IMG/VR virus record: IMGVR_UViG_3300014204_000139
Location: 1 to 64,000 of that record
Reading direction: 5' to 3' (one strand)
Source: a virus
Lineage: Duplodnaviria; Caudoviricetes
Length of the DNA stretch: 64,000 nucleotides
The notes under the pieces were generated by a model that saw only the letters and a program-made list of their open reading frames with translations, was not told where the DNA came from and searched no databases. Numbering within the stretch: position 1 is the stretch's first letter; each line of letters starts with the position of its first letter. A program made the position numbers and the translations under genes. This document shows, piece by piece, positions 33,668 to 52,255 of this stretch.

Positions 33668-33670
33668 TAA

Positions 33671-35647: not shown

Positions 35648-35659
35648 TTTAAACTCCAG

Positions 35660-36591: not shown

Positions 36592-36610
36592 TTTGATTCC
36601 TTTCTTTATT

Positions 36611-37229: not shown

Positions 37230-37466
37230 GAGCGAGGAGTATTTTCTTTTAGCAAAGTATTTTAATAGGAACTCCTTCTGCTCGAATACTTTTTTGAAAA
37301 GCGAGTGGTATATTTCTGGAATGATTTATAGGAACCACTTATGCTTTTTGAATTTCAAAAGGCGGAAAGTATTTTCAATTTAATAGGAACTTTCTATGCC
37401 GATTTTATGTTAATATAGCGAGGAGTATGTCATCACCCAAGATTTTAATAGGAACTCCTTCTGCTA
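37230..37466 (-). repeat. Array of four covarying RNA hairpins (37230-37283, 37297-37348, 37361-37400, 37416-37466)
   Basis: Shared GC-AKA-stem-UCCUAU(U)AAA-variable-U-stem-C-GC layout with compensatory stem changes. Confidence 0.85.
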
Positions 37467-37498
37467 ATTCTTAAACTAATAGATTACTTTATTGTATA

Positions 37499-37505
37499 TT
37501 TGTTC
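37499..37505 (-). promoter_or_regulatory. GAACAAA promoter motif pointing into the hairpin array
   Basis: TAGAACAAATATA on the minus strand about 35 nt upstream of the first hairpin. Confidence 0.55.
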
Positions 37506-37576
37506 TATAAAATTTTGAAATAAACTAAAAATTAACTAGAAAAAATAGAAATATTATTGCATAAGTACTAAAAAAA

Positions 37577-38101
37577 TTATTCTACTATATCAGTGGTTGC
37601 ATTTAACATTTCCAGATGAGCATCAATGTAATCAAATTTCATCTGCAGGTCTTTTAGAGAATTATTTTTAAAATCTTCATCGTATAACTGAATTGATTGA
37701 GCTCTTGATCCATCTGAATTCAGTTGAATTGATTTTAATTTGTTTTCTGCAACTACCTTATTTAGAGCTACAAATAATGTACAGTATTCTTTATAATTCA
37801 TTTTAAACATTAGAGCTTCTGCGATTGAAATTTCATGTTCTTGAGTCACAACACCTTTTGGAATTCTTAATTTTGTATTGATGTTTGTCTTATCAATCAT
37901 TACTTTTAATTTTGCTCTTCTTTCTAATAGATCTATTCCTGATTGAATTAGTCGAAGAATATGTTCCCTTTGAGTTTTTTCTGAATCAAATGCTGGTTTT
38001 TCAGTTGATGTTAATGATGAATACTTTTGAATTTCTTGAGTCACTCCTGCTACTTTCTTTTGATTTAACTTCTTTTCTTTTAAAGCTTCAATCATCTTCA
38101 T
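37577..38101 (-). CDS. DUF6847/DIP1984-like coiled-coil protein
   Basis: MKxxEAL...IDKTNxxT...SIAEAL...ID..L...NATT pattern recalled for that family. Confidence 0.7.
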   Translation of the reverse strand: MKMIEALKEKKLNQKKVAGVTQEIQKYSSLTSTEKPAFDSEKTQREHILRLIQSGIDLLERRAKLKVMIDKTNINTKLRIPKGVVTQEHEISIAEALMFKMNYKEYCTLFVALNKVVAENKLKSIQLNSDGSRAQSIQLYDEDFKNNSLKDLQMKFDYIDAHLEMLNATTDIVE

Positions 38102-38149
38102 AAGTCTTAAATCTCTCCTTATTATATTATAGGATTATAAATAATCCTT

Positions 38150-38332
38150 TCAAATCCAAAACTTTTTATTTTTCTCATCCTCATTCTTTTTCCAGTTCCA
38201 TGACCATATTGGTATTTCACCATGTTTTGGACAAATTGCTCTACTAAATCTATAATGATGTGGACCATGATAAAATCCACCAATTCCAAATATTTTAATT
38301 TTTTCTTCACAATCTTTTTGTGTGCAATTCAT
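38150..38332 (-). CDS. Small Cys/His protein
   Basis: CTQKDC...CPKHG. Confidence 0.5.
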   Translation of the reverse strand: MNCTQKDCEEKIKIFGIGGFYHGPHHYRFSRAICPKHGEIPIWSWNWKKNEDEKNKKFWI

Positions 38333-38337
38333 AATAA

Positions 38338-38748
38338 TTATTCCACTGTTATTCCTTCTTGTTCTGCAATAATTTTTAGTAGTTGTAAGGTAGGTATACC
38401 TTTAAAAGCAGCATCAATCAACCATTTCAACATTGTATCTTCAGAATGATGATGCCACCATTCAACCCAATTTATCATTCCCCATAAACCTCTTGGTTTT
38501 TCACCTAGTTTTTTTCTATCACTATCTTTTAGATCAATTGGATGGGGGATTCGAAAGAATCCTGTTTTTGGCGGGATTATAGGATCATAAGACAATGTAT
38601 TGTAGAACTCAAATGGTTGACATTCACCATACATATGAATCTTTGGACATTTATCATTACAGAGGTAAAGATCCCCTTGTTGCCACGGAGCAATTTCATC
38701 AAACTTATTCTTTAAAGCTTTATAATACTTAATCTCTTCTTCAGTCAT
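38338..38748 (-). CDS. Hypothetical protein
   Basis: GGAG RBS; ATGA overlap. Confidence 0.65.
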   Translation of the reverse strand: MTEEEIKYYKALKNKFDEIAPWQQGDLYLCNDKCPKIHMYGECQPFEFYNTLSYDPIIPPKTGFFRIPHPIDLKDSDRKKLGEKPRGLWGMINWVEWWHHHSEDTMLKWLIDAAFKGIPTLQLLKIIAEQEGITVE

Positions 38749-38939
38749 GTTTTTACTACTCCTTCAACTCTATCCATTAAGAATCTCCATTCCTTTAGAG
38801 CGTTTTCAAACATTTCTTTTAGTTTTTGATTTTCAAGTTCTAATGATTTTACATCCTCATATCTTACAAACTCGCCATGTTGTGATAACTTCATGTGAGC
38901 TCCATTTTTTGAACTTTCCCATAAATCAAATCTATTCAT
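38745..38939 (-). CDS. Small protein (start MNRFDL)
   Basis: AGGAG RBS before 38939; GEFVRYED motif. Confidence 0.6.
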   Translation of the reverse strand: MNRFDLWESSKNGAHMKLSQHGEFVRYEDVKSLELENQKLKEMFENALKEWRFLMDRVEGVVKT

Positions 38940-39137
38940 TTTTTGTCTCCTTTTAAAAACAAAAAGAATATTATCGTGTCTAACACACGACATACTCAAA
39001 AAATATTCAAGAGTTAGATTCTAAATTACTTTTCTCAAATATTAATATATTTAGCAGTCATTTTTATAATGAATTTTTAGTCTTTTTCTTTAAACCTTAG
39101 AACAAATATATGATGGATAAAACCATCAAAAAATCCA

Positions 39138-39176
39138 ACCGACTTTAAAAATAAAAATGAGTTTAGTCGGTACTCA
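39138..39176 (+). promoter_or_regulatory. H-type pseudoknot next to the RBS
   Basis: ACCGACT/AGTCGGT and TGAGT/ACTCA crossing stems a few nt before AAGGAGG. Confidence 0.6.
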
Positions 39177-39196
39177 GTAAAAAGGAGGTAGTAAAA

Positions 39197-39994
39197 ATGA
39201 TGTATAATTCAGGTCTTGTGGTAGTTGTCAAAAGTAATGGTAAAATTCTAAGAGAAGATAAAGATTTGGTTTTCTTACCATTCAATTCAGAGTATTCAAT
39301 TCTTTTAAAAAATTTAGATTCCAGAAAAGCTTTAGTTAATGTTTCAATTGATGGTCAAGATGTATTAGATAATAAAAGTCTAATCTTAGATCCAAATAGT
39401 AAAAGAGAAATTAAGGGTTTTCTAAATGGAATGTCTGCAAAAAATAGATTTAAATTTATTAAGAAAACAGAAGAAATTTCTGAATATCGAGGTGATAGAA
39501 TCGATGATGGAATTATCAGAGTTGAGTATTGGTTTGAGAAAGTAATTGAAAAGAAACAAATAATAACAGAATATATTACATCCTATCCATATCCTTCCTT
39601 CCCACCAGTTTTTTATAATTCAAGCGGAATTTATGGTAGTTCTGAAGGAAATAATTTAAGATCTTCTACAAGGTCAATTAATGTAAATTCAACAATAACA
39701 AAAAGTTTAAGTAATTCAGAAATAAATTCTTCGCTATCTACTAATTTTCAACCTCAAGAAGAAGGAATAACCGTTAAAGGTTCAGAGGTCTTTCAACAAT
39801 TTAGTTATGGAACTATTGGATCTTTAGAAGATAATTCAAAGGTTATAATTTTAAAGCTAATTGGTACTAAACAATCTGGAAAAATAGTACAAGAACCAAT
39901 AACAATTCAAACAAAAAAAATATGTCCAACATGCGGAAGAAGATCTAAATCTTATGCTAAACATTGTTCAAATTGTGGCACATTTCTAGATTAA
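39197..39994 (+). CDS. Conserved hypothetical protein with a C-terminal zinc ribbon
   Basis: AAGGAGG RBS; CPTCG...CSNCG. Confidence 0.8.
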   Translation: MMYNSGLVVVVKSNGKILREDKDLVFLPFNSEYSILLKNLDSRKALVNVSIDGQDVLDNKSLILDPNSKREIKGFLNGMSAKNRFKFIKKTEEISEYRGDRIDDGIIRVEYWFEKVIEKKQIITEYITSYPYPSFPPVFYNSSGIYGSSEGNNLRSSTRSINVNSTITKSLSNSEINSSLSTNFQPQEEGITVKGSEVFQQFSYGTIGSLEDNSKVIILKLIGTKQSGKIVQEPITIQTKKICPTCGRRSKSYAKHCSNCGTFLD

Positions 39995-39998
39995 TTTT

Positions 39999-40038
39999 TA
40001 AACCCTCTCATTTATATCACTATAAATGAGAGGGTTTA
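39999..40038. terminator. Bidirectional terminator
   Basis: TAAACCCTCTCATTTATA/TATAAATGAGAGGGTTTA. Confidence 0.85.
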
Positions 40039-40043
40039 ATCCG

Positions 40044-41249
40044 TTAGATTGCTGCTTGAAGTTGCTCTATCATATTTTTTATTTTCTCTCTTACCATATT
40101 CTCAGCAATTTCATTGACTCGTTTCTCAACCATGTCATTGGTAATATCAGAAATCTTAAATCTCATTTGTTTGACGATATTCTCAATTCCATTCGCTATA
40201 ATTTCATCGAATGGATTTTCATTTTTGAGAGTTTCATCAACTTGTTTTTCAACAACTGGGATTGGAGTATCAACTTGTTTTTCAACAACTGGGATTGGTG
40301 TTTCTTTTTCTACTTCAGGTTTACTCTCAAGATCATTTCCTTCCTTTTTTAGTATCCTCCATCCTTTAAATCTGTCGTTTTTACTTCCCGGTTGAAGTGA
40401 TAGATGCCCCATTATAAATAGTTCATCACAACACCTTTCACAAAGAAATTTAGAAATATTATGTTTTTCTGCATAATATTCAATTGAATAAAAGTAGTGA
40501 CCGCTATCATCAACTTGTGTAAACCAATTTAGAATTTCCGTGCGGAGGGTGAAAATCTCATTAATTCTAACCTGTCCAAATTCTGGATTAGTAATAGAAA
40601 TAATCCTATGAGCTTTTTTGGTTCTGTCAATTTTTATAAATCCTGAAAATTCAAAATAGTTCAAACACGTTGATGTGAAACCAAAAGATCTTCTGGTCTC
40701 ATTGGAAATTTCTTTAACTGTTTTAAAACCTGAAAATATAGCTTTAATAGTTAGGTATTCAAACCATTTTCTTTCACCACTGCTATATGTTCCGTTTATA
40801 TAATTTTCTAGTGCTTTATTTGTAATTTCTTCTGTCATAACCTTTTTCTCCTCTTCAATTTTTTGTTGTTTTACAAGTTTATAACTATCCTTGTATCTTT
40901 TAATTATTCCTGCCTTCACCATCCTATTCAGGACCTTTCTGCAGCATTTCGGAGAATATCCACAAGCTGAAACACAGCTTTTAATCTGTTCTTTGTTTGC
41001 AACATAAATCTGTCCGATATAATTTGTAATTATCGGAATGATTTTCATAATTTGAGAATATTTATTCTCTTCTAATTTTACTATTAATCTGCTTCTTTCC
41101 AACCTTTCAAGCTTCAAATCCAGGTCTGGAATACCTTCAAAAAACTCTGTAGTAATAATACTTCCATTTGATAAGTTCTCCGATCCCAGTCTTTGAATAA
41201 GTTGTAGCACTTTTATTCTCCTTTCAAAAAAATAATTTTTTATATTCAA
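40044..41249 (-). CDS. Multi winged-helix-like DNA-binding protein (true start uncertain)
   Basis: Repeated L...G(I/F/H)I wHTH-like segments; TPIPVVEKQVD duplicated. Confidence 0.55.
   Translation of the reverse strand: MNIKNYFFERRIKVLQLIQRLGSENLSNGSIITTEFFEGIPDLDLKLERLERSRLIVKLEENKYSQIMKIIPIITNYIGQIYVANKEQIKSCVSACGYSPKCCRKVLNRMVKAGIIKRYKDSYKLVKQQKIEEEKKVMTEEITNKALENYINGTYSSGERKWFEYLTIKAIFSGFKTVKEISNETRRSFGFTSTCLNYFEFSGFIKIDRTKKAHRIISITNPEFGQVRINEIFTLRTEILNWFTQVDDSGHYFYSIEYYAEKHNISKFLCERCCDELFIMGHLSLQPGSKNDRFKGWRILKKEGNDLESKPEVEKETPIPVVEKQVDTPIPVVEKQVDETLKNENPFDEIIANGIENIVKQMRFKISDITNDMVEKRVNEIAENMVREKIKNMIEQLQAAI
40236..40298. repeat. 33-nt in-frame tandem duplication
   Basis: ATCAACTTGTTTTTCAACAACTGGGATTGG occurs twice. 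Confidence 0.9.
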
Positions 41250-41336
41250 ATATTAATATATATAGTTAGATTCTTTTTAAAAGTATTTTTCTAATCTGAT
41301 CAGAATTATAGAACAAATAATAAATCTAAACTTCAT

Positions 41337-42038
41337 ATGTTTAAAAATAGAAGGATTTATAAAAATATGGATAAAGAAAAAAATTTAGTTGTAGAAATTA
41401 CAGATAACTATGGAGATTGCTTATCCGATAAAATTATTGGTAGTAGCAATAAAAACTCAGAGAGACCAAAAGGTTTTGTTGAAATATATGAACTAACAGA
41501 AAAAAATAAAAAACGATTAATTGATAAACAAAATCTTGTAGTAAATCTTGGAAGAGAATGGTTGTTATCAAGAGCATTTAATGAAGCAAATACATCAATT
41601 GTTCCTTTACCATCGGAATTTATTACTTGGTTTGGAGTTGGAAATGGCGGATGTCCAATAGCAGATCCATTAAATCCTACTTCTCCAACAAATTTAGATA
41701 CCGATTTAGCTAATTCAGTTATGATTAATGCAACAGATTCAACTTGTGCAGATTTTAGATTAACTCCAGATTCAGGATATTATAAACATCCATTTGATTC
41801 ACTTACTTTTGAGCAAGATGGGGATAATAGCAATTCTTGGTTAATAATTAAAGTTTCAACTACATTAGATGCTGATGACGGAAATGATTTTAATTTAAAT
41901 GAAGCAGGTCTGTTTACTGCAGCAAGTGGAGGCGGAGGATACTCTGGTAATTTTAATTTATACGCTAGAGTAACATTTCCATCTATTGTTAAAACAGCTG
42001 CAAGACAATTACTATTCGTTTGGTATGTATATTTTTAA
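41337..42038 (+). CDS. Baseplate/tail-collar-like structural protein
   Basis: NLVVNLGR, FGVGNGG, LNEAGLF, YARVTFPSIVKT; directly before the sheath gene. Confidence 0.7.
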   Translation: MFKNRRIYKNMDKEKNLVVEITDNYGDCLSDKIIGSSNKNSERPKGFVEIYELTEKNKKRLIDKQNLVVNLGREWLLSRAFNEANTSIVPLPSEFITWFGVGNGGCPIADPLNPTSPTNLDTDLANSVMINATDSTCADFRLTPDSGYYKHPFDSLTFEQDGDNSNSWLIIKVSTTLDADDGNDFNLNEAGLFTAASGGGGYSGNFNLYARVTFPSIVKTAARQLLFVWYVYF

Positions 42039-42112
42039 TATAGAATTGTAGGAAAGGAATAAACTAAAATAGAAGATAAAAAAATAAAAAAATAGAAATA
42101 GGAATAAATAAA

Positions 42113-44089
42113 ATGAATGTAAGTCCTGGTGTTTATAGTAAAATAATTGATATATCTGATTATGTTCAATCTGTACCTAGTACAATTGGTTGTTTAATGG
42201 CTCTAACTAAAAAAGGAAAAGATAATCAATTTAGCTTTGTAGGGAGTCGTTCTGAGTTAATTTCAGGATGGGGTGAACCAAACATCAATGATTACGGAAA
42301 AAATTATGGACAGGGATTATATGAAGCATATAACTTTTTAGGTGAATCTGGTGCTCTTTATTTTATGAGATGTTTACCAGATGATGCTACATTCGCTTGT
42401 ATTAGAATAGATGCTAGTTTAGCTCCAGCTGATTCCACTGCAGCAATTTCAATTAGTTATGTTGATAGTTTAAACACAATTGATGAAATCAAAACGGGTT
42501 TAGCAACTGCAGGAACTACTTTTCCATTATGTATGTTATATCCAATAGGAAGAGGTGAATATTACAATGCAATTTCTATTAGATTAACAGAATACTCTAA
42601 TCCAATGGTTAATGGGGTTTATGTATTAGATATTTATGAAAAACAATCAGATGGTGATGATGTAATTATAGAATCATTTGAGGTTTCTTTTGATCCAAAA
42701 GCAGTTGATAGATCTGGAGATTCAATTTTTATTGCTTATATTTTAGAAACATACTCTTCAATTCTTAGATGTGAAATGGTTTTAGCTAGTGGAGATTACA
42801 CTAGTGGTTATAATCTTGTTAGTAGAATTTATGATAAAGATATTGGTACCGTTTCTATTGTTGAAACCGCAGCTTCAGCAGAAATAATTGATAACAAACA
42901 ATTATTCACAGATTGGGAAAATAGTGGTGAAACAGGTAATGCAACATACATGGTAATTGCAAAAGATGCAAAAGGTAATTCCATTTATGGCTGGTTAGGT
43001 CAGGCTACAGGAACAGATAATGATAGAATCAATGTTTGGGACGGAAGAAATTTATCTACTGCATCAAGAGGATGGATAGGAGATATTACATTATTTGATA
43101 ATTCAAGTATAATTACTTATGAAATTAAAAAATCTAATACTTCAATAACTGATGCATTTATTTCTTCAACACCAGTTCCATTTAAGAAAGGAACAGATGG
43201 TACACTTCTAGATTCAGTTGGAAGTTTGGATACTACGGTTGCAACCCAAGTTTTAGCAGAAGCATATGCAGGAACATTAATAAATCCAATTACTGGATTA
43301 GTTGAAGATTTAATTACCGATACAGAAAATGTTTATTTTAGTATGGTTTTTGATGCTGGTTATCCTGCAAGTGTTAAATCACAAATTTCAACTCTAGTAC
43401 AAACCAGAAGAGATTGTGTTGCTATTATTGATAATGGTGATAATGCAACATATAACTTAGCAATTTCTGCTAGAAATAATACTAATACATTTAATAACTA
43501 CTATACTGCTATTTATGAATGTTATAATAAAGTGTATGATATCTTTACAGGGCAGGATATTTGGGTTAGTCCAATTTACCATATGTCTTATATTCTTCCT
43601 AGAAATGATAGTGTTAGTGAATTATGGAATGCTGCTGCAGGATTTAATAGAGCTTCAATAGATACAATTAAAGAATTAAGATATAATGCTAAGGTTGGTC
43701 AGAGAGATGGTTTTTATTTAACACAACTTAATGATATTGTTAAGTTTAGTTCTGGTTATGTTGTTTGGTCCCAGTTAACAAGTCAAGCTAAAGCTTCTGC
43801 AATGCAAGATTTAAATATAGTTCGATTAGTTTTATATTGTAAGAGAAGTCTTGAGAATTTTGCTAAATTTTATATATTCGAAATGAATGACCAAATTACA
43901 TGGAATAAATTTAATAATGAAATAGTAGGATTTCTTGAAGATGTTAAAAGAAGAAGAGGTTTATACTCATATAGTACAGACACATCTGCAACTGCATATG
44001 AAAGAAAAACAAAAACCTTCCATTCAAATATTATTTTAGAACCTACACGTACTACAGAGCAAATTAAATTAAACTTTTATGTTAAATAA
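42113..44089 (+). CDS. Tail sheath protein
   Basis: SPGVY N-terminus, RRDCVAIID, WNAAAGFNR, LNIVRL, FEMND. Confidence 0.92.
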   Translation: MNVSPGVYSKIIDISDYVQSVPSTIGCLMALTKKGKDNQFSFVGSRSELISGWGEPNINDYGKNYGQGLYEAYNFLGESGALYFMRCLPDDATFACIRIDASLAPADSTAAISISYVDSLNTIDEIKTGLATAGTTFPLCMLYPIGRGEYYNAISIRLTEYSNPMVNGVYVLDIYEKQSDGDDVIIESFEVSFDPKAVDRSGDSIFIAYILETYSSILRCEMVLASGDYTSGYNLVSRIYDKDIGTVSIVETAASAEIIDNKQLFTDWENSGETGNATYMVIAKDAKGNSIYGWLGQATGTDNDRINVWDGRNLSTASRGWIGDITLFDNSSIITYEIKKSNTSITDAFISSTPVPFKKGTDGTLLDSVGSLDTTVATQVLAEAYAGTLINPITGLVEDLITDTENVYFSMVFDAGYPASVKSQISTLVQTRRDCVAIIDNGDNATYNLAISARNNTNTFNNYYTAIYECYNKVYDIFTGQDIWVSPIYHMSYILPRNDSVSELWNAAAGFNRASIDTIKELRYNAKVGQRDGFYLTQLNDIVKFSSGYVVWSQLTSQAKASAMQDLNIVRLVLYCKRSLENFAKFYIFEMNDQITWNKFNNEIVGFLEDVKRRRGLYSYSTDTSATAYERKTKTFHSNIILEPTRTTEQIKLNFYVK

Positions 44090-44110
44090 ATAATTTATAC
44101 AAAAAAATAA

Positions 44111-44154
44111 TAAAAATGGAGTTAAGCTATAACTAAAGCTTAACTCCATTTTTA
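44111..44154. terminator. Bidirectional terminator
   Basis: TAAAAATGGAGTTAAGCT/AGCTTAACTCCATTTTTA. Confidence 0.85.
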
Positions 44155-44163
44155 CCGTAATAT

Positions 44164-44403
44164 TTATTTTCCGGGAGGTATCTCAACACCTATCCCATTA
44201 TATATTTTATCTATTGCATCAATTTTAAAATAAGCTTCTTTATATTCTTTTGCATCATTTTTTGCTGAAGTTAGTTTTTCAATTAGAAGATTAACTTGGC
44301 CTTCTGTTAATTCACATAATGCAGTACCAATTAGTAATATAATCTTTCCTTTAGGAGAAATCTTTACCCTAACATTTCTAATAGCGTCTGATTCAGTTCC
44401 CAT
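44164..44403 (-). CDS. Hypothetical protein
   Basis: Last ORF of the operon. Confidence 0.6.
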   Translation of the reverse strand: MGTESDAIRNVRVKISPKGKIILLIGTALCELTEGQVNLLIEKLTSAKNDAKEYKEAYFKIDAIDKIYNGIGVEIPPGK

Positions 44404-44409
44404 AAAAGT

Positions 44410-44823: not shown

Positions 44824-44844
44824 AAAAATGTATAAAATCTCCTC

Positions 44845-45360
44845 TTAGTGCGTATCAACCACTTCAATTTTTACTTTATTGATGTCAAACTTTTTTAAAT
44901 TTGTTTCTCTATAAATTAAGTATAGCATCCAATCTGGAACATCTTGAAAAAAATCATTATACATACTTGTATCATGAGTAACAGTAAAGAAATTTTCAAA
45001 CTTTATATCAAAATTCATTTCTCCTAATAACGTTCTTTTTATTTGGTCATCTGTAGCTAATAAACTAGCTTTTTCATCAAAATGTTTATATATCAAATCA
45101 TAAAATAATTCGTCTCTCTTATCCGCTTCTCCTTTCTCAATTTTTTCTTCTAATTCTTTTTTGCTTTTTATGTGTTTTTTAGTAGCATCCTTATATTTTT
45201 CAACTTTTTTATCTAAACTTTCAGAATTAATTTCTATATAATAATCTATATATTTATTCCACAATTTAATAAATTCATTTAAAGTTTTTGCTTCACAATT
45301 TACATATAAAATAAATGAGGCACTTGATGAATTAGTTATAAAATCTGTTTTTACTTTCAT
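44845..45360 (-). CDS. TNSS-motif protein 2 (start MKVK)
   Basis: MKVKTDFITNSSSASFI. Confidence 0.8.
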   Translation of the reverse strand: MKVKTDFITNSSSASFILYVNCEAKTLNEFIKLWNKYIDYYIEINSESLDKKVEKYKDATKKHIKSKKELEEKIEKGEADKRDELFYDLIYKHFDEKASLLATDDQIKRTLLGEMNFDIKFENFFTVTHDTSMYNDFFQDVPDWMLYLIYRETNLKKFDINKVKIEVVDTH

Positions 45361-45361
45361 A

Positions 45362-45895
45362 TTAATGTTCACTATTTTCTAAATTTGGAAGTTGATTAAA
45401 AGTGCCACCGTGTTCCATGTCGCTAAAAAACCCCCCACCTTCATCTGAATAACAAAAAGTATATATAAAACCTTTTTTATTTTCTAAAATAAAATCTTTT
45501 AAATCATCATCTGAGACTCTTAAAGTTGTATAATTATCAGAAAAATGTTTTATTATTTTCATTACAATATAATCAACTTGTGCAACTGGAATTATTAGAC
45601 TAGGATAAAAATTTGCACTTTTTTCTTTTATTTCTTCAATAATAGAATTAACAAAATCAGGATCAAATCTATCTAATAAAATTGATTCAACTAAATCCAT
45701 AAAATTAACATCAGCAAAAGTTTTACTAAGATCTATTTCTATTGGAATTTGTTCCATTGAATCTCTAAAAACCTGTTTTGCTTTTTCTAAAGCCATATAA
45801 GGACTTACATCATCTATAGACTCAATCTTTTTTGGAAATAAAACTATGAAGCTTGTTGAACTTGAATTAGTTACGAAATCATACTTTATTTTCAT
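45362..45895 (-). CDS. TNSS-motif protein 3
   Basis: MKIKYDFVTNSSSTSFI. Confidence 0.8.
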   Translation of the reverse strand: MKIKYDFVTNSSSTSFIVLFPKKIESIDDVSPYMALEKAKQVFRDSMEQIPIEIDLSKTFADVNFMDLVESILLDRFDPDFVNSIIEEIKEKSANFYPSLIIPVAQVDYIVMKIIKHFSDNYTTLRVSDDDLKDFILENKKGFIYTFCYSDEGGGFFSDMEHGGTFNQLPNLENSEH

Positions 45896-46242
45896 TAATA
45901 ACCGCCATCACCAATTATAACTTCAAAATCTTTTCCAAAATTTAATTTATTAATTCCATTATTTACCATAAAAATCTCAAGAGGATCATCTGATTCTGAA
46001 GAAGCCTCAATTAATAAAATTTCTCCGTTACTATTTATAACATTCTTCATTTTTTCAAAATCTGTGTAATCTTTAAAATTTTGTTTTAATTGATCAATAT
46101 CTCTAATTTTATCACTAACATATCTATCTAGATCAATCTCAATCTCAATTTTTATTTTTCCTAATTTTTCATTTCTATTTGTATGACCTATAATAAAACA
46201 AGCGCTGCTTGAATTGGTTACAAAATCTGTTTTTCTTTTCAA
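45895..46242 (-). CDS. TNSS-motif protein 4 (TTG start at 46242)
   Basis: MKRKTDFVTNSSSACFI; GGAG RBS and TTGA overlap with the upstream stop. Confidence 0.8.
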   Translation of the reverse strand: MKRKTDFVTNSSSACFIIGHTNRNEKLGKIKIEIEIDLDRYVSDKIRDIDQLKQNFKDYTDFEKMKNVINSNGEILLIEASSESDDPLEIFMVNNGINKLNFGKDFEVIIGDGGY

Positions 46243-46514
46243 TGATCGCTCCACTTAATCTTTTTTTCATCAACGTGAATTAATTCTAAAAATTCACGCA
46301 TATTAAAATTATCTAAAAATGTAGATAATTTTAATGCTTCTCCCAAATCTTCAATATACCATTTGTCTTCTTCTGCATATTGACCCATTCCCATTCTTGT
46401 AGCATAATATAAGTGATTTTCAATTTTTTTAATTTGATTTGGACTTAAATATTCTTTTTGAATTATAAATGAGCAACTACTTGAATTTGTTACAAAATCA
46501 TTCTTGAATTTCAT
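46239..46514 (-). CDS. TNSS-motif protein 5
   Basis: MKFKNDFVTNSSSCSFI. Confidence 0.8.
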   Translation of the reverse strand: MKFKNDFVTNSSSCSFIIQKEYLSPNQIKKIENHLYYATRMGMGQYAEEDKWYIEDLGEALKLSTFLDNFNMREFLELIHVDEKKIKWSDH

Positions 46515-47139
46515 TGAACTTCTTATCCTTATTACAAACTATTACGATATTTTTTTCAGATTTGCACTGTTTATCAAATTGACCATTACCATTAGATAAC
46601 TTACAAAGATCTAAACACCATAATTCATATGGACTTAACTTATCTACAATAAAAGATGGATATTTTTCTGATTTATTTCCTTCACAACAGGGCATCATAA
46701 TTAAATAATCTGCCCCTGATTTTTTATAAATATCAATAATTGCAATAGCTAGTTCATCACAAGGATGAACTGATACAATTATAGAAGGATTATTTTCGTT
46801 TATTGTTTTAATTAAAATATCTTTTTCTTTTATTATATCTAACTTTATTCTACTAAAACCTCTGATTTTAGAAAATCCTTGTCTATCTCTATCTTTATTA
46901 TCAATTGCAACTACATTTTTGACTTTAAATAAATGTGCTATTAAAGAAGAAGTAACACAATTACCTGAACACAAATCAAAAATATTATATTTATTAGGAT
47001 TTGTAACTAAAATCTTTTTAATCCTTTTAATTATAGACATAGATTCAGTAATTTCTTTTTCAGGTTCAAGAAATGGATATACTGAATTTAAAACATCTCC
47101 TGCACATTTTAGTTCTAGAAAATGATTAATAGCACTCAT
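46498..47139 (-). CDS. Class I SAM-dependent methyltransferase (Methyltransf_32/Trm13-like motifs)
   Basis: IFDLCSGN, VVAID, VSVHPC, MMPCC, SEKN. Confidence 0.75.
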   Translation of the reverse strand: MSAINHFLELKCAGDVLNSVYPFLEPEKEITESMSIIKRIKKILVTNPNKYNIFDLCSGNCVTSSLIAHLFKVKNVVAIDNKDRDRQGFSKIRGFSRIKLDIIKEKDILIKTINENNPSIIVSVHPCDELAIAIIDIYKKSGADYLIMMPCCEGNKSEKYPSFIVDKLSPYELWCLDLCKLSNGNGQFDKQCKSEKNIVIVCNKDKKFNEIQE

Positions 47140-47156
47140 TTAATCTTCTTTCTTTA

Positions 47157-48176
47157 TTACAATTCATATGGACAAGACATTGGATTATTGTTTAGTTTAT
47201 TTCTAAACATTTGAAAAGATGAACCATCATCCCAAATTTTTTGAATTGGTGTTTCTTTTGTAATTTTCAAACCATATTTGTATTTATCTCCAAAAGAGCA
47301 TGGCATAAACATCATATCTGGAGAAATATAACAACTCATTCTTGAACCTTCACATGTATCAACACAAGTTTTTTCATTTTCGGTCAAATCTCTTACTTGA
47401 CTAACCTTGTTAATCATACATGAATCACAACCAATTTTAAATTTTGACTTTGGATCAAGAAGGTGATTTGCAAACTCTTTTATTTGATCATTATTTAAAC
47501 ATAGATATTTTTTATCTGCACCATTTCCTTGTGGTTTAAATAAAAGAAATACTACAGCATTTAATTTATCAATAGGAAATTTTTCATTCCATATATCTTC
47601 ACCTTTTAAGATTTTAATTGAGTTAAAAAAAGTTTCATTTGAAACTACAAAATGAATATTAGTTTTAATTTCTTCTTTAATGAATTTATTTAATGCATTA
47701 TAAGTAAAATCTTTATCATAATTTGAAACTGCAACAGCGCCACATAGTTTACTAATTTCAACTTCTTCATCTGTTAAACCATTACCAGATGTAGTATAAT
47801 TTGGAATTACATTATTCTTTCTGCAATATTCAAGAATTTCTTTAAAATTTTCATGTTTATTTGGGTCACCCTTTCCACCTAAAGCGACCTGATTAATATG
47901 AGATTTACATTGATCGATAATTGATTTAAAATCTTCTAATTTCATATTTGGTTCATTGACATCGCCCTGATAGCAAATTTTACAATTATTTAAGCAATGG
48001 CCCATAATACCAATATCAATCATACTAGGAGAATTCAGAACAAATGGATCTGGATTTCCATGAATACCAGACAGAACTTCAAAACCATTAAAACCATTAA
48101 ACAAAATAATATACTTCTCAGTCTCAATCTTCTTAGTAAAAATCATTATAATACCTTTCAGAAATATTTTATTCAT
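47157..48176 (-). CDS. Radical SAM enzyme with a SPASM/twitch-like C-terminus
   Basis: CLNNCKIC, ALGGKGDP, YTTSG, CEGSRMSCYISPD...PCSF...CP. Confidence 0.9.
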   Translation of the reverse strand: MNKIFLKGIIMIFTKKIETEKYIILFNGFNGFEVLSGIHGNPDPFVLNSPSMIDIGIMGHCLNNCKICYQGDVNEPNMKLEDFKSIIDQCKSHINQVALGGKGDPNKHENFKEILEYCRKNNVIPNYTTSGNGLTDEEVEISKLCGAVAVSNYDKDFTYNALNKFIKEEIKTNIHFVVSNETFFNSIKILKGEDIWNEKFPIDKLNAVVFLLFKPQGNGADKKYLCLNNDQIKEFANHLLDPKSKFKIGCDSCMINKVSQVRDLTENEKTCVDTCEGSRMSCYISPDMMFMPCSFGDKYKYGLKITKETPIQKIWDDGSSFQMFRNKLNNNPMSCPYEL

Positions 48177-48657
48177 TCCCAGTAACTAAAACTACTAATT
48201 TATCATTATCAATTTTAATTCTTTCATATCTCATTTTACATTCAGATAAATTTCCATTATGATCTGAAAATCCACAGGTACTTATAGATTTAAAACCCTT
48301 TCTCTCTTTATATTTCAAAAGTTCAATTAGTTTTTCATCTTTCTCAATTTCATCTTTATAATATTCTAAATATATCGATGATTTATCTCTTTCATCTTTA
48401 ATCAATCTTTTATAAGTAATTATATTTTTTTCTATTTCTTTAATTTTATCGTTAATATCTATTACTTTAACATAATCTTTTTCATTTATAATTTTAATAA
48501 CCTCATATACATTTACATTATAAATTTCATCAATAAATTCAAAAGATCTCCAGTTATCTTTCATAACTGAATAAAGATCATTTAATTCTCTTCCTCTAAA
48601 AACAAAAATATATGAAGTTGAACTTGAGTTAGTTACAAAATCTCTTTTTATTAACAT
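48169..48657 (-). CDS. TNSS-motif protein 6
   Basis: MLIKRDFVTNSSSTSYI. Confidence 0.8.
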   Translation of the reverse strand: MLIKRDFVTNSSSTSYIFVFRGRELNDLYSVMKDNWRSFEFIDEIYNVNVYEVIKIINEKDYVKVIDINDKIKEIEKNIITYKRLIKDERDKSSIYLEYYKDEIEKDEKLIELLKYKERKGFKSISTCGFSDHNGNLSECKMRYERIKIDNDKLVVLVTGNE

Positions 48658-49018
48658 TAATCATTCTAGCCTTTATAAGCGTGTAAGATGAAGATTCTTT
48701 TTTACCAAAAATTTTTTCTAACCAGTTTAAAATTCCAGTTGTATTACATGTATCACAACTAAGATTCATTTTAGAATTAGGCTTAGTAAAACAATCAGGA
48801 CATAAAAAATTTGGTGGTTTAATTATAACTACAAATACTTCTTTACATATTGTACATCTAAAAATATATTTTGATTGATTAATTTTTCTTAAAAGTTTTA
48901 AATAATATCTTGTATAAGATTCACTAGAAAAATTTGGAAATGGACCATGATTATTAATACATTTTAAACCTTCCGAACTAATGAATTTTTTAGTATTACT
49001 ATTATATATTGTTATCAT
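48629..49018 (-). CDS. Zinc-finger protein
   Basis: CTIC, CPDC, CDTC. Confidence 0.55.
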   Translation of the reverse strand: MITIYNSNTKKFISSEGLKCINNHGPFPNFSSESYTRYYLKLLRKINQSKYIFRCTICKEVFVVIIKPPNFLCPDCFTKPNSKMNLSCDTCNTTGILNWLEKIFGKKESSSYTLIKARMINVNKKRFCN

Positions 49019-49147
49019 TAATTAATTCTTTATTCATTATCTTTAATTTAGTAGAACATTCTCTACTAAATTGAAAAATATAATTAGTATCTAAAGTATA
49101 TAAGATATCATCAAAAATATTTCTAAAGATTAATTTTTTTTCTTCAA

Positions 49148-50221
49148 TTAATCCAATTGACATTTTGTCTCCTTAGATAAAAGAAATCTTTTTGTAATTT
49201 TTTGACAAAGTTTATCAATTGCAACTTTATTTGCTGTATGTGGAAGAACAGACTTCTCATATAGTTCATTAAATTTTAAATCAAATGATTCTAGAAGATT
49301 TGAAATTTCTTCATATTTATAAGTGCCATTTTTAATTTCAAGTAAGAATTTTGCATCTGGTCTTGGAAATGTTATTTTTCCTGTTGTTAATAATTCTTCG
49401 CCTTCAGTAATTAATCTTACTAAATGTGAACCATGTTTTGTATCAAATCCATATTTTTCTTCTAGTTTTGCTCTTTCTGGATTTCTATTCTTTTTCCAAT
49501 TTTCATACTGATTAAAATATCTTTCTGCCATTGCATAAGAATTTTCTTTTTGAAGAATTTCTATAAATTGATCAGAAATAGGTAAAATTGCTTGAGTTGC
49601 TTCTTTGTCTAAATTTGGAAATTGTTTGCAAAGAGCTTTAAAATCATAAGTCTCTTGCATTTGTTCTAGTTGTTCTTTTAGAGGATGAAACTCTTTAACA
49701 TTCTCTAACTTCATTGCAACTAATACATTTAAAGCACCAATTTGATCTTTTGTTAAATCAGATTTAGATTCAGATAAACCATAATCAGATCTTTTTGGTT
49801 TTTTAGTTGGAGGATTTAGTAACCAAGATCTATGTAGTTTAATTCTATTAAATTGAGAATGAGCATAACCTGAAAATGTAAATTTAGACTTTTTAGAAAC
49901 AAATAAGTCTCTATTTTTTGAAATTTGTAACCAGTCTACTGAGTTCTGTAGCCATTTATCTTTTGGAACAAATAAAAGTTCAATAATATTTGGGTTATTT
50001 TCCATTGCTAACTGCATAAATTTTCTAATTTCAAAATATGTTATATCATTTTTCTTATCTTCAAATTGCTCTACTCTATTTAAGAACCCATAAAAATATG
50101 TTTCATCTGCAATAAAAACACCTCGTTCATCAATATCTGATTGTGGTGTATTTGTGCCATATAGATGTGATCCAGCTAAACATCTAAAAATTAATTTAAA
50201 GGAGTTTGGAAGTTGAATCAA
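49148..50221 (-). CDS. Pol-beta superfamily nucleotidyltransferase (RlaP/YcgL/T4 NrdC.11-like)
   Basis: GSHLYGTNTPQSDIDERGVF, NPNIIELL, KHGSHLVRL. Confidence 0.88.
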   Translation of the reverse strand: MIQLPNSFKLIFRCLAGSHLYGTNTPQSDIDERGVFIADETYFYGFLNRVEQFEDKKNDITYFEIRKFMQLAMENNPNIIELLFVPKDKWLQNSVDWLQISKNRDLFVSKKSKFTFSGYAHSQFNRIKLHRSWLLNPPTKKPKRSDYGLSESKSDLTKDQIGALNVLVAMKLENVKEFHPLKEQLEQMQETYDFKALCKQFPNLDKEATQAILPISDQFIEILQKENSYAMAERYFNQYENWKKNRNPERAKLEEKYGFDTKHGSHLVRLITEGEELLTTGKITFPRPDAKFLLEIKNGTYKYEEISNLLESFDLKFNELYEKSVLPHTANKVAIDKLCQKITKRFLLSKETKCQLD

Positions 50222-50250
50222 TTCTTATTACCTTTCTTTTTATTAAAATA

Positions 50251-50288
50251 ATATCCGCATTAGACAAACTAATATCTAATGCGGATAT
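50251..50288 (-). terminator. Hairpin after the TerD-like gene
   Basis: ATATCCGCATTAGA/TCTAATGCGGATAT. Confidence 0.7.
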
Positions 50289-50295
50289 CTTAAAC

Positions 50296-52197
50296 TTAGC
50301 TAATCAGATTTATTATTGTATCTTTCTCTAAACTTTCAGGTGAAAGATCAATATCACAATCTTCTTTTGAGTCAACCAATATTGCTCCAGATTTCTCTAA
50401 AACCTCATTTAATGTTATACTACCAAAATTAAAGTCAAAAAGAAACTGTCTAATTTTATTGGTTGATTTTGTTGCTCTTGATGTTATTGAATCCCCAAAT
50501 GAGGTTTCAACATAATAGAATTTACACTCTTTCTCGTTAGTAACCATCAACCCAATAATTTTCTGACGAGTTGAAATTTTAGCACTGTCGGACGAGATAA
50601 CGTTATTTGGACTAATCATATAATTTCTGGAAAGATTTTCTCTTACATCTCTTCCAACAATTATTTTGAATGGAACCTCAACCTTTTCGTTAAAATTATA
50701 ATAGTTGACAAACATAATTGAACATATGGAACTATTTTTATTTACATGAAATAATTCTGTAGCACCATTTGGAGGAGTTGCAGAGGTCATATCTCCAGAA
50801 AATAAAACAGTTAAATTCTGATTCCTGTAACGTCCATCCCATCCTATTTTGTCTCCAAGATGATTAATCAAAGAGAGATCTAGATCAATTCTATTTTCTC
50901 CAACATCATTCCAATGAATACCAAAAATCATATTATTTGGAACACTAATACAGGTTCCAGATGGAAAATTTCCAACAAATTGTTTTTCTGTTGCAGGTAA
51001 TGAATATGTAATATTTTTTGGAATATAAATATTCTTTCCTGCAACCTTTTGTCGGAGATTTTCACTTATAGATTTTAGAATAATGTTCAATGCATCTTGA
51101 TGTTTTTTAGAACTTAATTCATTAAAATCTGTAACAAAATTTTTTCCATTTCTAATTCTATACAATATATAACTTGGTTCAGATTCTCTAAACTTTACTG
51201 AATATACAAGTCTTATTTTTCTAAAGACATTTACTTTTTTTAATTCTTTTTCAAGAATTTCTAAATCTAGAGTATCATTTTTAATTTTAGATGTTACACT
51301 GTTTAGAAAATCTTCTGGCATCGGTTTATGAAAACGTACTGCAAGTCTTCTGATTCTATTAATTATGTTATTCATTTCTTCACTTCTTTTAAATGCTAGA
51401 AATAAAGGTTTAAATCTGTAGAAAATCTCGCCAAGATGTTCAATACCAAATTCTTTATCATATTTTTTAAATAATTTGTAAACAATATCTTTGGTGATTG
51501 TCATTGATACTTTTATTTCTGAAATTGTATTTGGATCTTTAATCAACAACGTTCTCCCAATAGATTTAAATATTACAAATCTTAGGAATTCAATAGGATT
51601 CTTTGGAATTTTATTTAGACTATCATATAGAACAACTCTAACTTCTTTATTTTTAATTTGAACCAACTCATCTTCAGAAAAATTAAAAAGTTGTTTAATA
51701 AGATTAACCATGCCAATTTTTGTATCATCTTTTAAAGCGATTCCAGACTTTAGAACTGCAAAAACTTTTTCTTTTAATTCTTCTATAGTGTATCCCTTAA
51801 TAACTGTCAAGGGAATTTTATCTAAATTGATTCTTGGAAGTTCTAATTTTTCACATGGAATATAAACTGAATTATTATCATATACACCAAGAGCCTCAAA
51901 TCCATATGTAGTTATGTAATGCATTATTTGCTCAATTACTAAAACTTCAATATTTGTTTCTTTTATTTTTCTCCATGATTTATGAAAGGTGTTGTTTATC
52001 TTTCTTGAATTAAATCCAATTGTTTCTTCAATCATGGGAATTATTTTAATTAAAAAATCTGTATCATAGTTATAAATTACTTCTGGTGCATAAATAAATC
52101 CACTTTTAATTGTTTCTTTGAGAAGTTTTTTATTTGCTTCTTTTTTTCCATTTTTTGTAATTGGTAATGCTTTGAATAAACTAATAAATGTCTGCAT
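50296..52197 (-). CDS. 633-aa protein with a helical N-terminal region and a C-terminal TerD-like domain
   Basis: FGIHW...RIDLDLS...GW...FSGDMTSA...GATE TerD-like motifs; NNTFHKSW and EQIMHYITTYG in the N-terminal part. Confidence 0.75.
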   Translation of the reverse strand: MQTFISLFKALPITKNGKKEANKKLLKETIKSGFIYAPEVIYNYDTDFLIKIIPMIEETIGFNSRKINNTFHKSWRKIKETNIEVLVIEQIMHYITTYGFEALGVYDNNSVYIPCEKLELPRINLDKIPLTVIKGYTIEELKEKVFAVLKSGIALKDDTKIGMVNLIKQLFNFSEDELVQIKNKEVRVVLYDSLNKIPKNPIEFLRFVIFKSIGRTLLIKDPNTISEIKVSMTITKDIVYKLFKKYDKEFGIEHLGEIFYRFKPLFLAFKRSEEMNNIINRIRRLAVRFHKPMPEDFLNSVTSKIKNDTLDLEILEKELKKVNVFRKIRLVYSVKFRESEPSYILYRIRNGKNFVTDFNELSSKKHQDALNIILKSISENLRQKVAGKNIYIPKNITYSLPATEKQFVGNFPSGTCISVPNNMIFGIHWNDVGENRIDLDLSLINHLGDKIGWDGRYRNQNLTVLFSGDMTSATPPNGATELFHVNKNSSICSIMFVNYYNFNEKVEVPFKIIVGRDVRENLSRNYMISPNNVISSDSAKISTRQKIIGLMVTNEKECKFYYVETSFGDSITSRATKSTNKIRQFLFDFNFGSITLNEVLEKSGAILVDSKEDCDIDLSPESLEKDTIINLIS

Positions 52198-52214
52198 AAA
52201 AATTTCCTTTCTTT

Positions 52215-52255
52215 AAGCGAATGGTATTTTGATTTAATAAGGACCATATATGCTT
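52215..52255 (-). promoter_or_regulatory. Fifth copy of the array hairpin, directly upstream of the RBS of the TerD-like gene
   Basis: AAGC-AUA-UAUGGU-CCUUAUUAAAUCAAAAU-ACCAUU-C-GCUU followed by AAAGAAAGGAAA. Confidence 0.75.

What the first reader, a model, noticed from the sequence alone, without database searches (positions are those of the whole stretch)
37230..52255. Array of covarying RNA hairpins linked to a distant TerD-like protein: candidate new RNP system
Seen: four tandem hairpins (37230-37466) with inner stems AGGAGU/ACUCCU, AGUGGU/ACCACU, GAAAGU/ACUUUC and AGGAGU/ACUCCU. Outer stems vary but always end in GC, a 3x1 internal loop (A-G/U-A opposite C) is fixed, and loops begin UCCUAU(U)AAA then vary. 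A promoter motif points into the array. A fifth copy lies 15 kb away beside the RBS of the 633-aa TerD-like gene, which is flanked by an RlaP-like transferase and an RNA ligase. Known: Ro60/Rsr binds Y RNA at a helix with a single C bulge and a 3-nt bulge and is linked to RtcB loci. Inference: the protein binds this hairpin, autoregulates through copy five, and uses the array RNAs as partners in RNA repair.
Basis: partly seen in the sequence, partly recalled or inferred. Interest (0 to 1): 0.9.

Follow-up and report, generated by a model that had tools for sequence, protein, structure and literature searches.

The report
Phage handle RNAs with TerD-fold partner
Five small folded RNAs in this large phage share one conserved "handle" that is found, in phages and bacteria alike, only next to one uncharacterised 630-residue protein, usually among tRNA or RNA-repair genes. 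The pair is probably an undescribed RNA-protein particle that works like the Ro60/Y-RNA particle but is not related to it.

Summary
Five minus-strand hairpins (four at 37230-37466, one at 52215-52255) share an outer stem ending in G-C, a fixed 3x1 internal loop, a covarying 6-bp inner stem and a conserved loop start.

A covariance model built only from relatives finds exactly these five copies in the 95.6-kb contig. No Rfam family matches.

The link to the 633-aa gene is very strong.
- The motif lies on the gene's strand, almost always just upstream, in 77 of 77 informative phage loci and 77 of 80 bacterial or archaeal genome loci.
- In reverse, 22 of 23 true motif loci found by DNA pattern carry the gene directly downstream.

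The protein has a basic helical N-terminal domain with no recognisable fold and a TerD-fold C-terminal domain. TROVE/Ro60 homology was tested and not found.

The context is tRNA clusters and RNA repair. This window holds a CCA-adding enzyme, an RNA ligase, RlaP, RtcB and 11 tRNA genes. In Chryseobacterium the order is RtcB, a tRNA-like RNA carrying a permuted handle, three hairpins, then the gene.

My best reading is an undescribed RNA-protein particle analogous to Ro60/Y RNA. Binding, autoregulation through copy five and the repair role are inferred, not shown. Earlier notes of this scan reached the same reading on other genomes. I found no publication.

The parts
37416..37466 (-). Hairpin unit U4, first in transcription order. 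Handle plus a 27-nt loop whose apical mini-hairpin shows UGG.
   Evidence: R1 65.3 bits; R2 55.8 bits; sequence
37361..37400 (-). Hairpin unit U3. Handle with a short 18-nt loop and no apical hairpin.
   Evidence: R1 65.0 bits; R2 54.7 bits
37297..37348 (-). Hairpin unit U2
   Evidence: R1 59.0 bits; R2 54.2 bits
37230..37283 (-). Hairpin unit U1. Its apical loop shares a 9-mer with the anticodon loop of the phage's own tRNA-Ser(GCU).
   Evidence: R1 73.1 bits; R2 60.6 bits
37491..37519 (-). Weak sigma-70-like promoter (9 of 12) that would start transcription about 10-18 nt before U4
   Evidence: A promoter scoring >= 10 of 12 sits at the same place in 27% of related loci, against 2% of control windows.
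52215..52255 (-). Hairpin unit U5 in the 5' leader of the protein gene. Its 3' end lies 5 nt before the Shine-Dalgarno sequence and 18 nt before the ATG.
   Evidence: 64 bits; 35.9 bits
50296..52197 (-). 633-aa partner protein (P0001). Basic helical N-terminal domain (net charge +19), TerD-fold domain at ~390-570, short C-terminal domain.
49148..50221 (-). RlaP-family nucleotidyltransferase, directly downstream
   Evidence: PF10127 85 bits, phrog_388
53963..54610 (-). RNA ligase, two genes upstream in the same orientation
   Evidence: PF09414 41 bits, phrog_548
56109..57446 (-). CCA-adding enzyme with HD domain, same orientation
   Evidence: PF01743, PF12627, PF01966, PF13735
28954..31305 (-). 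RtcB RNA ligase gene inside the tRNA region, interrupted twice
   Evidence: PF01139 145.7 bits; translation
25255..36681 (-). Eleven tRNA genes (a twelfth in Rfam only) on the same strand. The hairpin array sits about 550 nt upstream of the first one.

Best explanation
The five hairpins are copies of an undescribed structured RNA module, read from the minus strand.

Each copy has an invariant 'handle' and a free apical part. The handle consists of an outer stem ending in G-C, an A-N-A bulge opposite one C, a 6-bp inner stem closed by G-C and U-A, and conserved nucleotides where the loop begins and ends. The apical part varies from copy to copy.

The handle is the recognition site of the 633-aa protein at 50296-52197, most likely through its strongly basic helical N-terminal domain. 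Together they form an RNA-protein particle.

Four units (37230-37466) are made as small RNAs from their own weak promoter at the head of the phage's tRNA region. The fifth lies in the mRNA leader of the protein gene, 5 nt from the ribosome-binding site. There the bound protein could shut off its own translation.

The particle works on tRNA or damaged RNA together with the neighbouring healing and sealing enzymes (CCA-adding enzyme, RNA ligase, RlaP, RtcB). The variable loops serve as adaptors that resemble parts of tRNA.

Shown: the RNA structure, the transcribed strand, the RNA-gene linkage and the gene context. Inferred: binding, autoregulation and the repair role.
For: Structure
- In 137 distinct copies from other phages, 99.2% of cells are paired.
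- There are 316 cells changed on both sides, against 82 in shuffles, and 8 of 10 pairs covary.
- G-U pairs outnumber A-C pairs 27 to 3, which fits RNA read from the gene's strand.

Linkage
- All 164 hits in 80 phage loci lie on the gene's strand, and 139 lie within 1 kb upstream.
- In 74 loci the hits are among the best 150. Three more loci have weaker upstream hits. The last three loci have almost no upstream DNA.
- All 111 hits in 77 of 80 bacterial or archaeal loci lie upstream on the same strand.
- The motif also lies beside distant homologues (27-30% identity) in the cultured phages S-CRM01, S-CBWM1 and Phass-1.
- Reverse test: 22 of 23 true motif loci have the gene directly downstream.
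- There are no hits in nine Ro60 loci.

A free RNA rather than only a leader
- The array in this window is detached.
- One copy sits between tRNA genes in S-CBWM1, and an array lies downstream of the gene in Phass-1.
- One copy carries a whole YrlA-like tRNA module (39 bits, E 2.9e-7).
- In Chryseobacterium a tRNA-like RNA (49.6 bits) carries a circularly permuted handle in place of the anticodon arm.

Context
- The closest syntenic relative reads RNA ligase, four hairpins, gene, RlaP, with a CCA-adding enzyme upstream.
- Chryseobacterium reads RtcB, RNAs, gene, then two RlaP genes.
- The gene is embedded in tRNA clusters in many phages.

Protein
- The N-terminal domain has a net charge of +19, with a median of +20 in 30 homologues.
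Against: - No binding, expression or processing data exist.
- The N-terminal domain has no recognisable RNA-binding fold.
- RNA-repair genes lie within 10 kb in only 14 of 80 phage loci. The 32 of 80 genome loci with such genes are mostly one genus.
- Roughly half of the phage loci scanned have no tRNA gene nearby.
- In most loci the last hairpin abuts the ribosome-binding site, which a purely cis-acting leader would also explain.
- The window's promoter match is weak.
- The covariation counts were made on an alignment fitted to the model and on related sequences.
Confidence: 0.6

Rival explanations
1. The hairpins are only a cis-acting leader element. In this reading they are a translational operator, attenuator or mRNA stabiliser of the 633-aa gene, and extra copies are redundant. 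They are never free RNAs.
For: In 139 of 150 hits the motif lies within 1 kb upstream of the gene. The last copy usually ends 2-44 nt before the start codon. U5 ends 5 nt before the Shine-Dalgarno sequence. The conserved loop start contains a pyrimidine run that could pair with a purine-rich ribosome-binding site.
Against: - Four of the five copies here lie 15 kb from the gene with their own promoter-like site.
- Copies occur between tRNA genes (S-CBWM1) and downstream of the gene (Phass-1 and six other hits).
- Arrays hold 1-6 copies with diversified stems and loops.
- The handle also occurs, circularly permuted, inside a tRNA-like RNA and around a YrlA-like module.
Confidence: 0.15
2. The hairpins are processing or punctuation signals of tRNA and mRNA precursors, recognised by a host RNase or another factor. 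The 633-aa protein is only a neighbour.
For: Units abut tRNA genes in several loci, for example L043 where a tRNA ends where a unit starts. The array here heads the tRNA region.
Against: A host-factor signal would not track one accessory protein family across phages, Bacteroidota, Chloroflexota, cyanobacteria and Planctomycetota at near 100%. About half of the phage loci have no tRNA gene nearby.
Confidence: 0.07
3. It is a highly divergent member of the Ro60 (TROVE)/Y-RNA system itself.
For: - Same logic: small RNAs are encoded beside the protein in RNA-repair loci.
- One copy scores 39 bits on Rfam YrlA through its tRNA-like module.
- The 5' strand of the handle (G-N-C, three bases, then G) recalls the Rsr-recognition motif reported for bacterial Y RNAs (PMC4201824).
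- Ro60 (1yvp) appears at Z 6.0 in the structural search.
Against: - Profile-profile comparison with eight TROVE proteins gives probability 0.25%.
- There is no PDB sequence hit at E <= 1, and no Pfam TROVE hit in 30 members.
- The Z 6.0 match covers only 66 residues and is tied with unrelated helical proteins.
- The C-terminal domain has the TerD fold, not vWA.
- The window's RNAs do not match YrlA at E <= 10.
Confidence: 0.05
4. They are DNA-level repeats, such as a miniature mobile element or a protein-binding operator, with no RNA role.
For: They are tandem inverted repeats in intergenic DNA.
Against: All 275 hits in relatives are on the gene's strand. G-U pairs outnumber A-C pairs 27 to 3. 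Stems change sequence while keeping pairing. The conserved loop is asymmetric, and there are no target-site duplications or transposase genes.
Confidence: 0.02

Closest known systems
Ro60 (Rsr; TROVE + vWA) with bacterial Y RNAs YrlA and YrlB, for example the Salmonella rsr-yrlBA-rtcBA operon (PMC4201824; Rfam RF02553)
   Same: One or more small structured RNAs are encoded next to a ~550-630-aa protein with a helical N-terminal part. Each RNA combines a conserved protein-binding stem holding a small asymmetric loop with a variable module that in some copies mimics tRNA. The pair is linked with RtcB and other RNA-repair genes and also occurs in phages.
   Different: No sequence or fold relationship to TROVE was detected. 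The C-terminal domain is TerD-fold, not vWA. The handle sequence is different. Most units are minimal 40-70-nt hairpins in tandem arrays, and they usually lie in the gene's own leader. None of four bacterial genomes and none of this 95.6-kb contig that carry the new pair has a TROVE gene.
TerD family (PF02342; structures 2kxt, 3ibz, 2qng, 2qz7)
   Same: The C-terminal ~180 residues adopt the TerD beta-sandwich (Foldseek probability 1.0, target TM 0.53-0.59). They keep acidic D-L-D-L-S and S-G-D motifs of the kind that bind calcium in TerD.
   Different: The Pfam model does not match any of 30 members. The domain is fused to a 385-residue basic helical domain. There is no Ter operon context.
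MXAN_6230/SCO0854 family RING-domain proteins (NCBIfam NF041916) of Actinomycetota and Myxococcota
   Same: The ESM Atlas structural search aligns 596 residues at TM 0.74, so the helical-plus-TerD core seems shared. A weak HMM hit covers the TerD part (26.7 bits).
   Different: Those proteins are ~850-1000 aa with a RING domain. The score is far below the family cut-off of 600 bits. I did not examine whether they have the RNA.
Phage translational operators (T4 RegA, gp32 and gp43 operator hairpins)
   Same: A hairpin lies next to the ribosome-binding site of the gene for the protein thought to bind it (U5).
   Different: Those operators are single sites without tandem free copies. They have no tRNA-like modules and do not occur in bacteria next to RNA ligases.

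Membership tests
Ro60/Y RNA system | The protein has a TROVE domain detectable by sequence | tested here: not met
   No Pfam hit. The profile search of PDB finds nothing at E <= 1. hhalign against eight TROVE proteins gives probability 0.25%, E 0.24.
Ro60/Y RNA system | The N-terminal domain has the TROVE (HEAT-repeat ring) fold | tested here: inconclusive
   Foldseek finds no match at E <= 1e-3. VIA-align lists 1yvp_A at Z 6.0 over 66 residues, tied with unrelated helical proteins. The domain model has pLDDT 76 with a disordered 60-130 segment.
Ro60/Y RNA system | C-terminal vWA domain | tested here: not met
   The C-terminal domain matches TerD structures at probability 1.0.
YrlA (RF02553) | The RNA reaches the Rfam gathering score of 69 bits | tested here: not met
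   The window array has no YrlA hit at E <= 10. The best relative, L029:2426-2538, scores 39 bits.
YrlA (RF02553) | tRNA-like domain with T and D arms | tested here: not met
   None of U1-U5 has one. Four of 137 related copies carry a T-arm-like element and one carries a full module.
YrlA (RF02553) | The G-N-C-G-A-A-(N)-G recognition motif near the 5' end (PMC4201824) | tested here: not met
   The handle reads G-G-C, then A-U/A/C-A, then R-G. The bulge is AUA in 85, AAA in 28 and ACA in 15 of 137 copies.
Ro60/Y RNA system | The RNA genes lie beside the protein gene, in RNA-repair neighbourhoods | tested here: met
TerD (PF02342) | TerD beta-sandwich fold | tested here: met
   2kxt, 3ibz, 2qng and 2qz7 at probability 1.0, target TM 0.53-0.59. 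Phage TerD-like proteins in BFVD also match.
TerD (PF02342) | Match to the Pfam family model | tested here: not met
   No hit at E <= 1 in any of 30 members.
Known anti-phage defence proteins (PADLOC) | Match to a defence-system model | tested here: not met
   No family at E <= 0.01.
Any Rfam family | Covariance-model match of the hairpins | tested here: not met
   Only tRNAs reach the gathering score in 64 kb. The only hit at E <= 10 on the array is a chance microRNA match of 17 bits.

The most novel reading that the evidence does not exclude
The particle is a display rack for tRNA look-alikes. One protein grips the constant handle while the variable loops present tRNA-like elements.

Three kinds of element appear in the loops:
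- anticodon-loop mimics. Seven-base loops with the U33 and R37 pattern occur in 31 of 142 copies against 9 expected, including Asn, Tyr, Ser and Lys-type loops. U1 here copies the loop of the phage's own tRNA-Ser(GCU).
- UGG-bearing loops that could pair with tRNA CCA ends.
- whole tRNA bodies.

The phage or cell could use this rack in two ways. It could decoy host anticodon nucleases, or it could hold cleaved tRNA halves in register for RlaP, RNA ligase and RtcB.
Probability: 0.2. Interest if true: 0.9.

Novelty: categorically new. Interest (0 to 1): 0.8.

Why it matters
If the pairing is what it appears to be, there is a second, independently evolved RNA-protein particle of the Ro60/Y-RNA type. 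It spans about 1,700 protein clusters at 50% identity, in large phages and in several bacterial phyla.

It would give names and a testable role to a large 'hypothetical protein' family and to an RNA family absent from Rfam. It would add a missing scaffold to phage and bacterial tRNA-repair pathways. It would also show how phages with large tRNA sets protect or service them against host ribotoxins.

Cultured systems exist for testing: the cyanophages S-CRM01 and S-CBWM1, and Chryseobacterium species.

Tried and rejected
- **Rfam.** The gathering-score search of the whole window and the E <= 10 search of the array found nothing but tRNAs and one chance microRNA hit.
- **Phage DNA search around the array.** Only tRNA-Ile matched.
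- **Energy of the whole array.** It is not better than shuffles on either strand (z -0.3 and -0.7). The case rests on covariation, not on energy.
- **Loop-start motif alone.** With two mismatches it is no more frequent than chance (107 found, 117 expected). Only the full hairpin is specific.
- **Family searches with the protein.** Pfam, PHROGs, NCBIfam and PADLOC gave no informative family.
- **TROVE homology.** It was rejected by sequence profile. The fold comparison is inconclusive.
- **Conserved gene neighbourhood.** The two genes between the RNA ligase and U5 (phrog_2087, phrog_1383) occur in none of 83 related loci, so they are not part of the module.
- **Pattern-only search of viral contigs.** Eleven of 34 matches were chance hits without a hairpin.
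- **MFE folding of the variable loops.** It gave a heterogeneous picture. Only targeted counts showed enrichment, and those use mononucleotide shuffles on related sequences, so they are leads only.
- **Literature.** Burroughs & Aravind 2016 (RNA repair systems) is not in the library, so I could not check whether it mentions this protein.


Full report
**What the window is.** The window is the first 64 kb of a 95.6-kb IMG/VR phage contig that CheckV rates 28% complete. That points to a genome of roughly 300 kb or more. It is a myovirus with a tail sheath and T4-type baseplate genes. Eleven tRNA genes lie on the minus strand between 25.2 and 36.7 kb; Rfam adds a twelfth.

**The observation.** Each has:
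- an outer stem of 3-4 pairs ending in G-C;
- three unpaired bases (A-G/U-A) opposite a single C;
- a 6-bp inner stem whose first four pairs differ between copies while the last two (G-C, U-A) are fixed;
- a loop that begins with a fixed pyrimidine-rich motif and ends in A-U.

RNAalifold predicts this structure unaided. Pair counts on the five copies give 97.9% paired cells and 6 of 10 pairs changed on both sides. No shuffle out of 500 reaches the covariation score, and slid registers fall to 27-50% paired. The folding energy of the whole array is not unusual, so the evidence is covariation, not stability.

A covariance model of the five copies (R1) finds no other copy in the contig. A model built only from copies in other phages (R2) recovers exactly these five, at 36-61 bits. 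Rfam has no matching family.

**Linkage to the gene.** The 633-aa product of 50296-52197 (P0001) has thousands of relatives at about 50% identity in metagenomes, none of them named. A profile search of 1.84 billion cluster representatives finds 1,685 clusters at E <= 1e-3 and 1,131 at E <= 1e-30.

I fetched 80 IMG/VR loci that hold a homologue and searched them with R1. There were 164 hits at E <= 1, all on the gene's strand.
- Of the best 150 hits, 139 lie within 1 kb upstream of the start codon, six lie just downstream and five lie 1.0-1.5 kb upstream.
- Seventy-four loci are covered by those 150 hits. Three more (L080, L083, L091) have weaker upstream hits. The remaining three have 65 nt or less of upstream sequence.

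Eighty bacterial and archaeal genome loci gave 111 R2 hits in 77 loci, again all upstream and on the same strand. They include complete Chryseobacterium chromosomes, Ktedonobacter racemifer, cyanobacteria and Pirellulaceae.

The three cultured phages with distant homologues (27-30% identity) also have the motif beside the gene. These are Synechococcus phages S-CRM01 and S-CBWM1 and the gut phage Phass-1.

I also ran the test in reverse. A 17-base pattern from the handle found 34 viral loci. Twenty-three of them hold a true hairpin by the model. Twenty-two of those have the gene directly downstream, and the last is cut off by the end of the locus. Nine Ro60 loci contain no copy.

**Structure and strand in the large set.** In 137 distinct copies, 99.2% of cells pair. 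There are 316 cells changed on both sides, against 82 in shuffles, and 8 of 10 pairs covary. This alignment was fitted to the model, so the counts lean towards it. G-U pairs outnumber A-C pairs 27 to 3, as expected for RNA read from the gene's strand. Strong sigma-70-like promoters (>= 10 of 12) end just before the first unit in 27% of loci, against 2% of control windows. The window's 9-of-12 match at 37519-37491 sits in the same position.

**The protein.** AlphaFold gives a confident model (pLDDT 83.7). Residues ~390-570 match TerD structures at Foldseek probability 1.0, although the Pfam TerD model matches none of 30 members. The first 385 residues are helical and strongly basic, with net charge +19 and a median of +20 in 30 homologues. 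Many Arg, Lys, His and aromatic residues there are invariant.

No known fold was recognised for the N-terminal domain. Foldseek gives only TPR-like noise. VIA-align's best score is Z 7.0, and Ro60 (1yvp) appears at Z 6.0 over 66 residues among unrelated helical proteins. A profile-profile comparison with eight TROVE proteins from Bacteroidota gives probability 0.25%. I therefore do not file the protein under Ro60.

Similar whole-length architectures turn up in two places.
- BFVD lists uncharacterised proteins of Campylobacter phages and of Lactobacillus phage LpeD.
- The ESM Atlas gives TM 0.74 to the bacterial MXAN_6230/SCO0854 RING-domain family.

**Context.** The gene here sits in a minus-strand run. 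In transcription order it reads:
- CCA-adding enzyme with HD domain (56109-57446);
- RNA ligase (53963-54610);
- two unrelated genes;
- U5;
- the gene;
- RlaP (49148-50221);
- radical-SAM and methyltransferase genes further downstream.

An RtcB gene lies among the tRNA genes.

The closest syntenic relative (60% identity, L227) reads CCA-adding enzyme, RNA ligase, four hairpins filling a 342-nt gap, the gene, then RlaP. So the likely ancestral order is ligase, array, gene, RlaP. In this window two genes have entered between the ligase and the gene, one hairpin remains in the leader, and a four-unit array sits 15 kb away at the head of the tRNA region.

In Chryseobacterium sp. S-02 the order is as follows.
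- RtcB comes first.
- Next is a tRNA-like RNA. It scores 49.6 bits on the Rfam tRNA model, and its anticodon arm is replaced by a circularly permuted handle.
- Three standard hairpins follow.
- Then comes the gene.
- Two RlaP genes lie 3 kb further on.

RNA-repair genes lie within the flanks of 14 of 80 phage loci and 32 of 80 genome loci. The latter are mostly Chryseobacterium but include four other lineages. About half of 60 phage loci have same-strand tRNA genes within 10 kb. In at least eight phages, S-CRM01 and S-CBWM1 among them, the gene is embedded in a large tRNA cluster.

**The variable loops.** Loop length runs from 12 to 92 nt, with a median of 29.
- Four of 137 copies carry a T-arm-like hairpin.
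- One copy (L029:2426-2538) carries a full T-arm, stem and D-arm module. It scores 39 bits on Rfam YrlA over the whole model, below the gathering score of 69.
- UGG is enriched: 50 of 141 loops against 17.7 expected. It sits inside small hairpin loops in 34 copies against 6.8 expected.
- Mini-hairpins with seven-base loops that fit the anticodon-loop pattern occur in 31 of 142 copies against 9.1 expected, with a shuffle maximum of 17.
- U1's apical loop shares nine bases with the anticodon loop of the phage's own tRNA-Ser(GCU).

These counts use simple shuffles on related sequences, so they are leads only.

**Mechanism.** The constant handle paired with a free apical part has several features that point to free RNA partners rather than to a mere leader:
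- its portability into a tRNA scaffold;
- the detached arrays;
- the promoters placed just before the first unit;
- the near-perfect, strand-specific linkage to one basic protein.

Together these are best explained by small RNAs that this protein binds at the handle. U5 ends 18 nt before the ATG and 5 nt before the Shine-Dalgarno sequence. A bound 73-kDa protein there would block ribosome entry, which makes feedback repression plausible. The same position in most relatives supports that idea, although a leader-only model predicts it too.

The role in tRNA or RNA repair rests on gene context alone. I put the whole reading at about 0.6. The rivals are a purely cis-acting leader (0.15), a processing signal unrelated to the protein (0.07), a very divergent Ro60/Y-RNA system (0.05) and DNA-level repeats (0.02).

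**Comparison and novelty.** The system works like Ro60 with YrlA and YrlB (PMC4201824). Small RNAs with a protein-binding stem and, sometimes, a tRNA-like module are encoded beside the protein in RtcB-type loci. It fails the membership tests for that family on the protein domains, the RNA recognition motif and the Rfam score.

Neither this contig nor four bacterial genomes that carry the new pair has a TROVE gene. I found no paper describing the pair. The jumbo-phage survey PMC7824862 mentions only standalone TerD and ROT/TROVE proteins.

Earlier AI notes of this scan reached the same 'Y-like RNA with TerD-domain partner' reading on other genomes. I consulted them after forming my own reading, and I re-tested their main claims here.

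Noticed in passing
window 28954-31305 (-): The RtcB gene is interrupted twice. The first interruption is an intein-like insert of about 300 aa. It starts with Cys after the conserved V-G-V-D-I-G, ends in H-N and is followed by Cys. The second is a ~190-nt stretch (about 29791-29980) with six in-frame stops, lying exactly between the conserved G-S-L-G-G-G and N-H-F-I-E motifs. That stretch is richer in G+C and folds at z -3.5, so it looks like a small self-splicing intron. Rfam finds no family for it.
   Followed up: partly
window 36876-36918 (-): A perfect 16-bp hairpin lies about 310 nt downstream of the array and upstream of two promoter-like sites and tRNA-Ile. It may end the array transcript, but it has no U tract.
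   Followed up: no
window 37253-37261 (U1 loop) and tRNA-Ser(GCU) at 25577-25662: U1's apical loop shares a nine-base string with the anticodon loop of the phage's own tRNA-Ser(GCU). I put the chance of this at roughly 0.05-0.2 by a rough estimate.
   Followed up: partly
L188:5553-5660 (Chryseobacterium sp. S-02 chromosome): A tRNA-like RNA has normal acceptor, D and T arms. Its anticodon arm is replaced by a 44-nt insert that is the handle in circularly permuted order, with the outer stem closed by a triloop. It lies between RtcB and three standard hairpin units.
   Followed up: partly
L098:8979-9446 (Phage Phass-1, OQ749652.1): About six hairpin copies form an array 1.2 kb downstream of the homologue. 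They overlap an annotated 'hypothetical protein' CDS (locus 8992-9291), which is probably a mis-annotation.
   Followed up: no
window 46498-48176 (-): A radical-SAM/SPASM protein and a Methyltransf_32 protein lie downstream in the same operon as RlaP. L227 has the methyltransferase too. They may be RNA-modifying enzymes.
   Followed up: no
window 52277-53953 (-): Two genes (phrog_1383 'virion structural protein' with a weak LemA/2TM likeness, and phrog_2087) sit between the RNA ligase and U5. They are absent from all 83 related loci, so they look like an insertion that split the ancestral ligase-array-gene order.
   Followed up: partly
window 36611-36681 (-): tRNA-Ile(UAU) scores only 39 bits and has a shortened D arm. 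It is the tRNA gene closest to the array.
   Followed up: no
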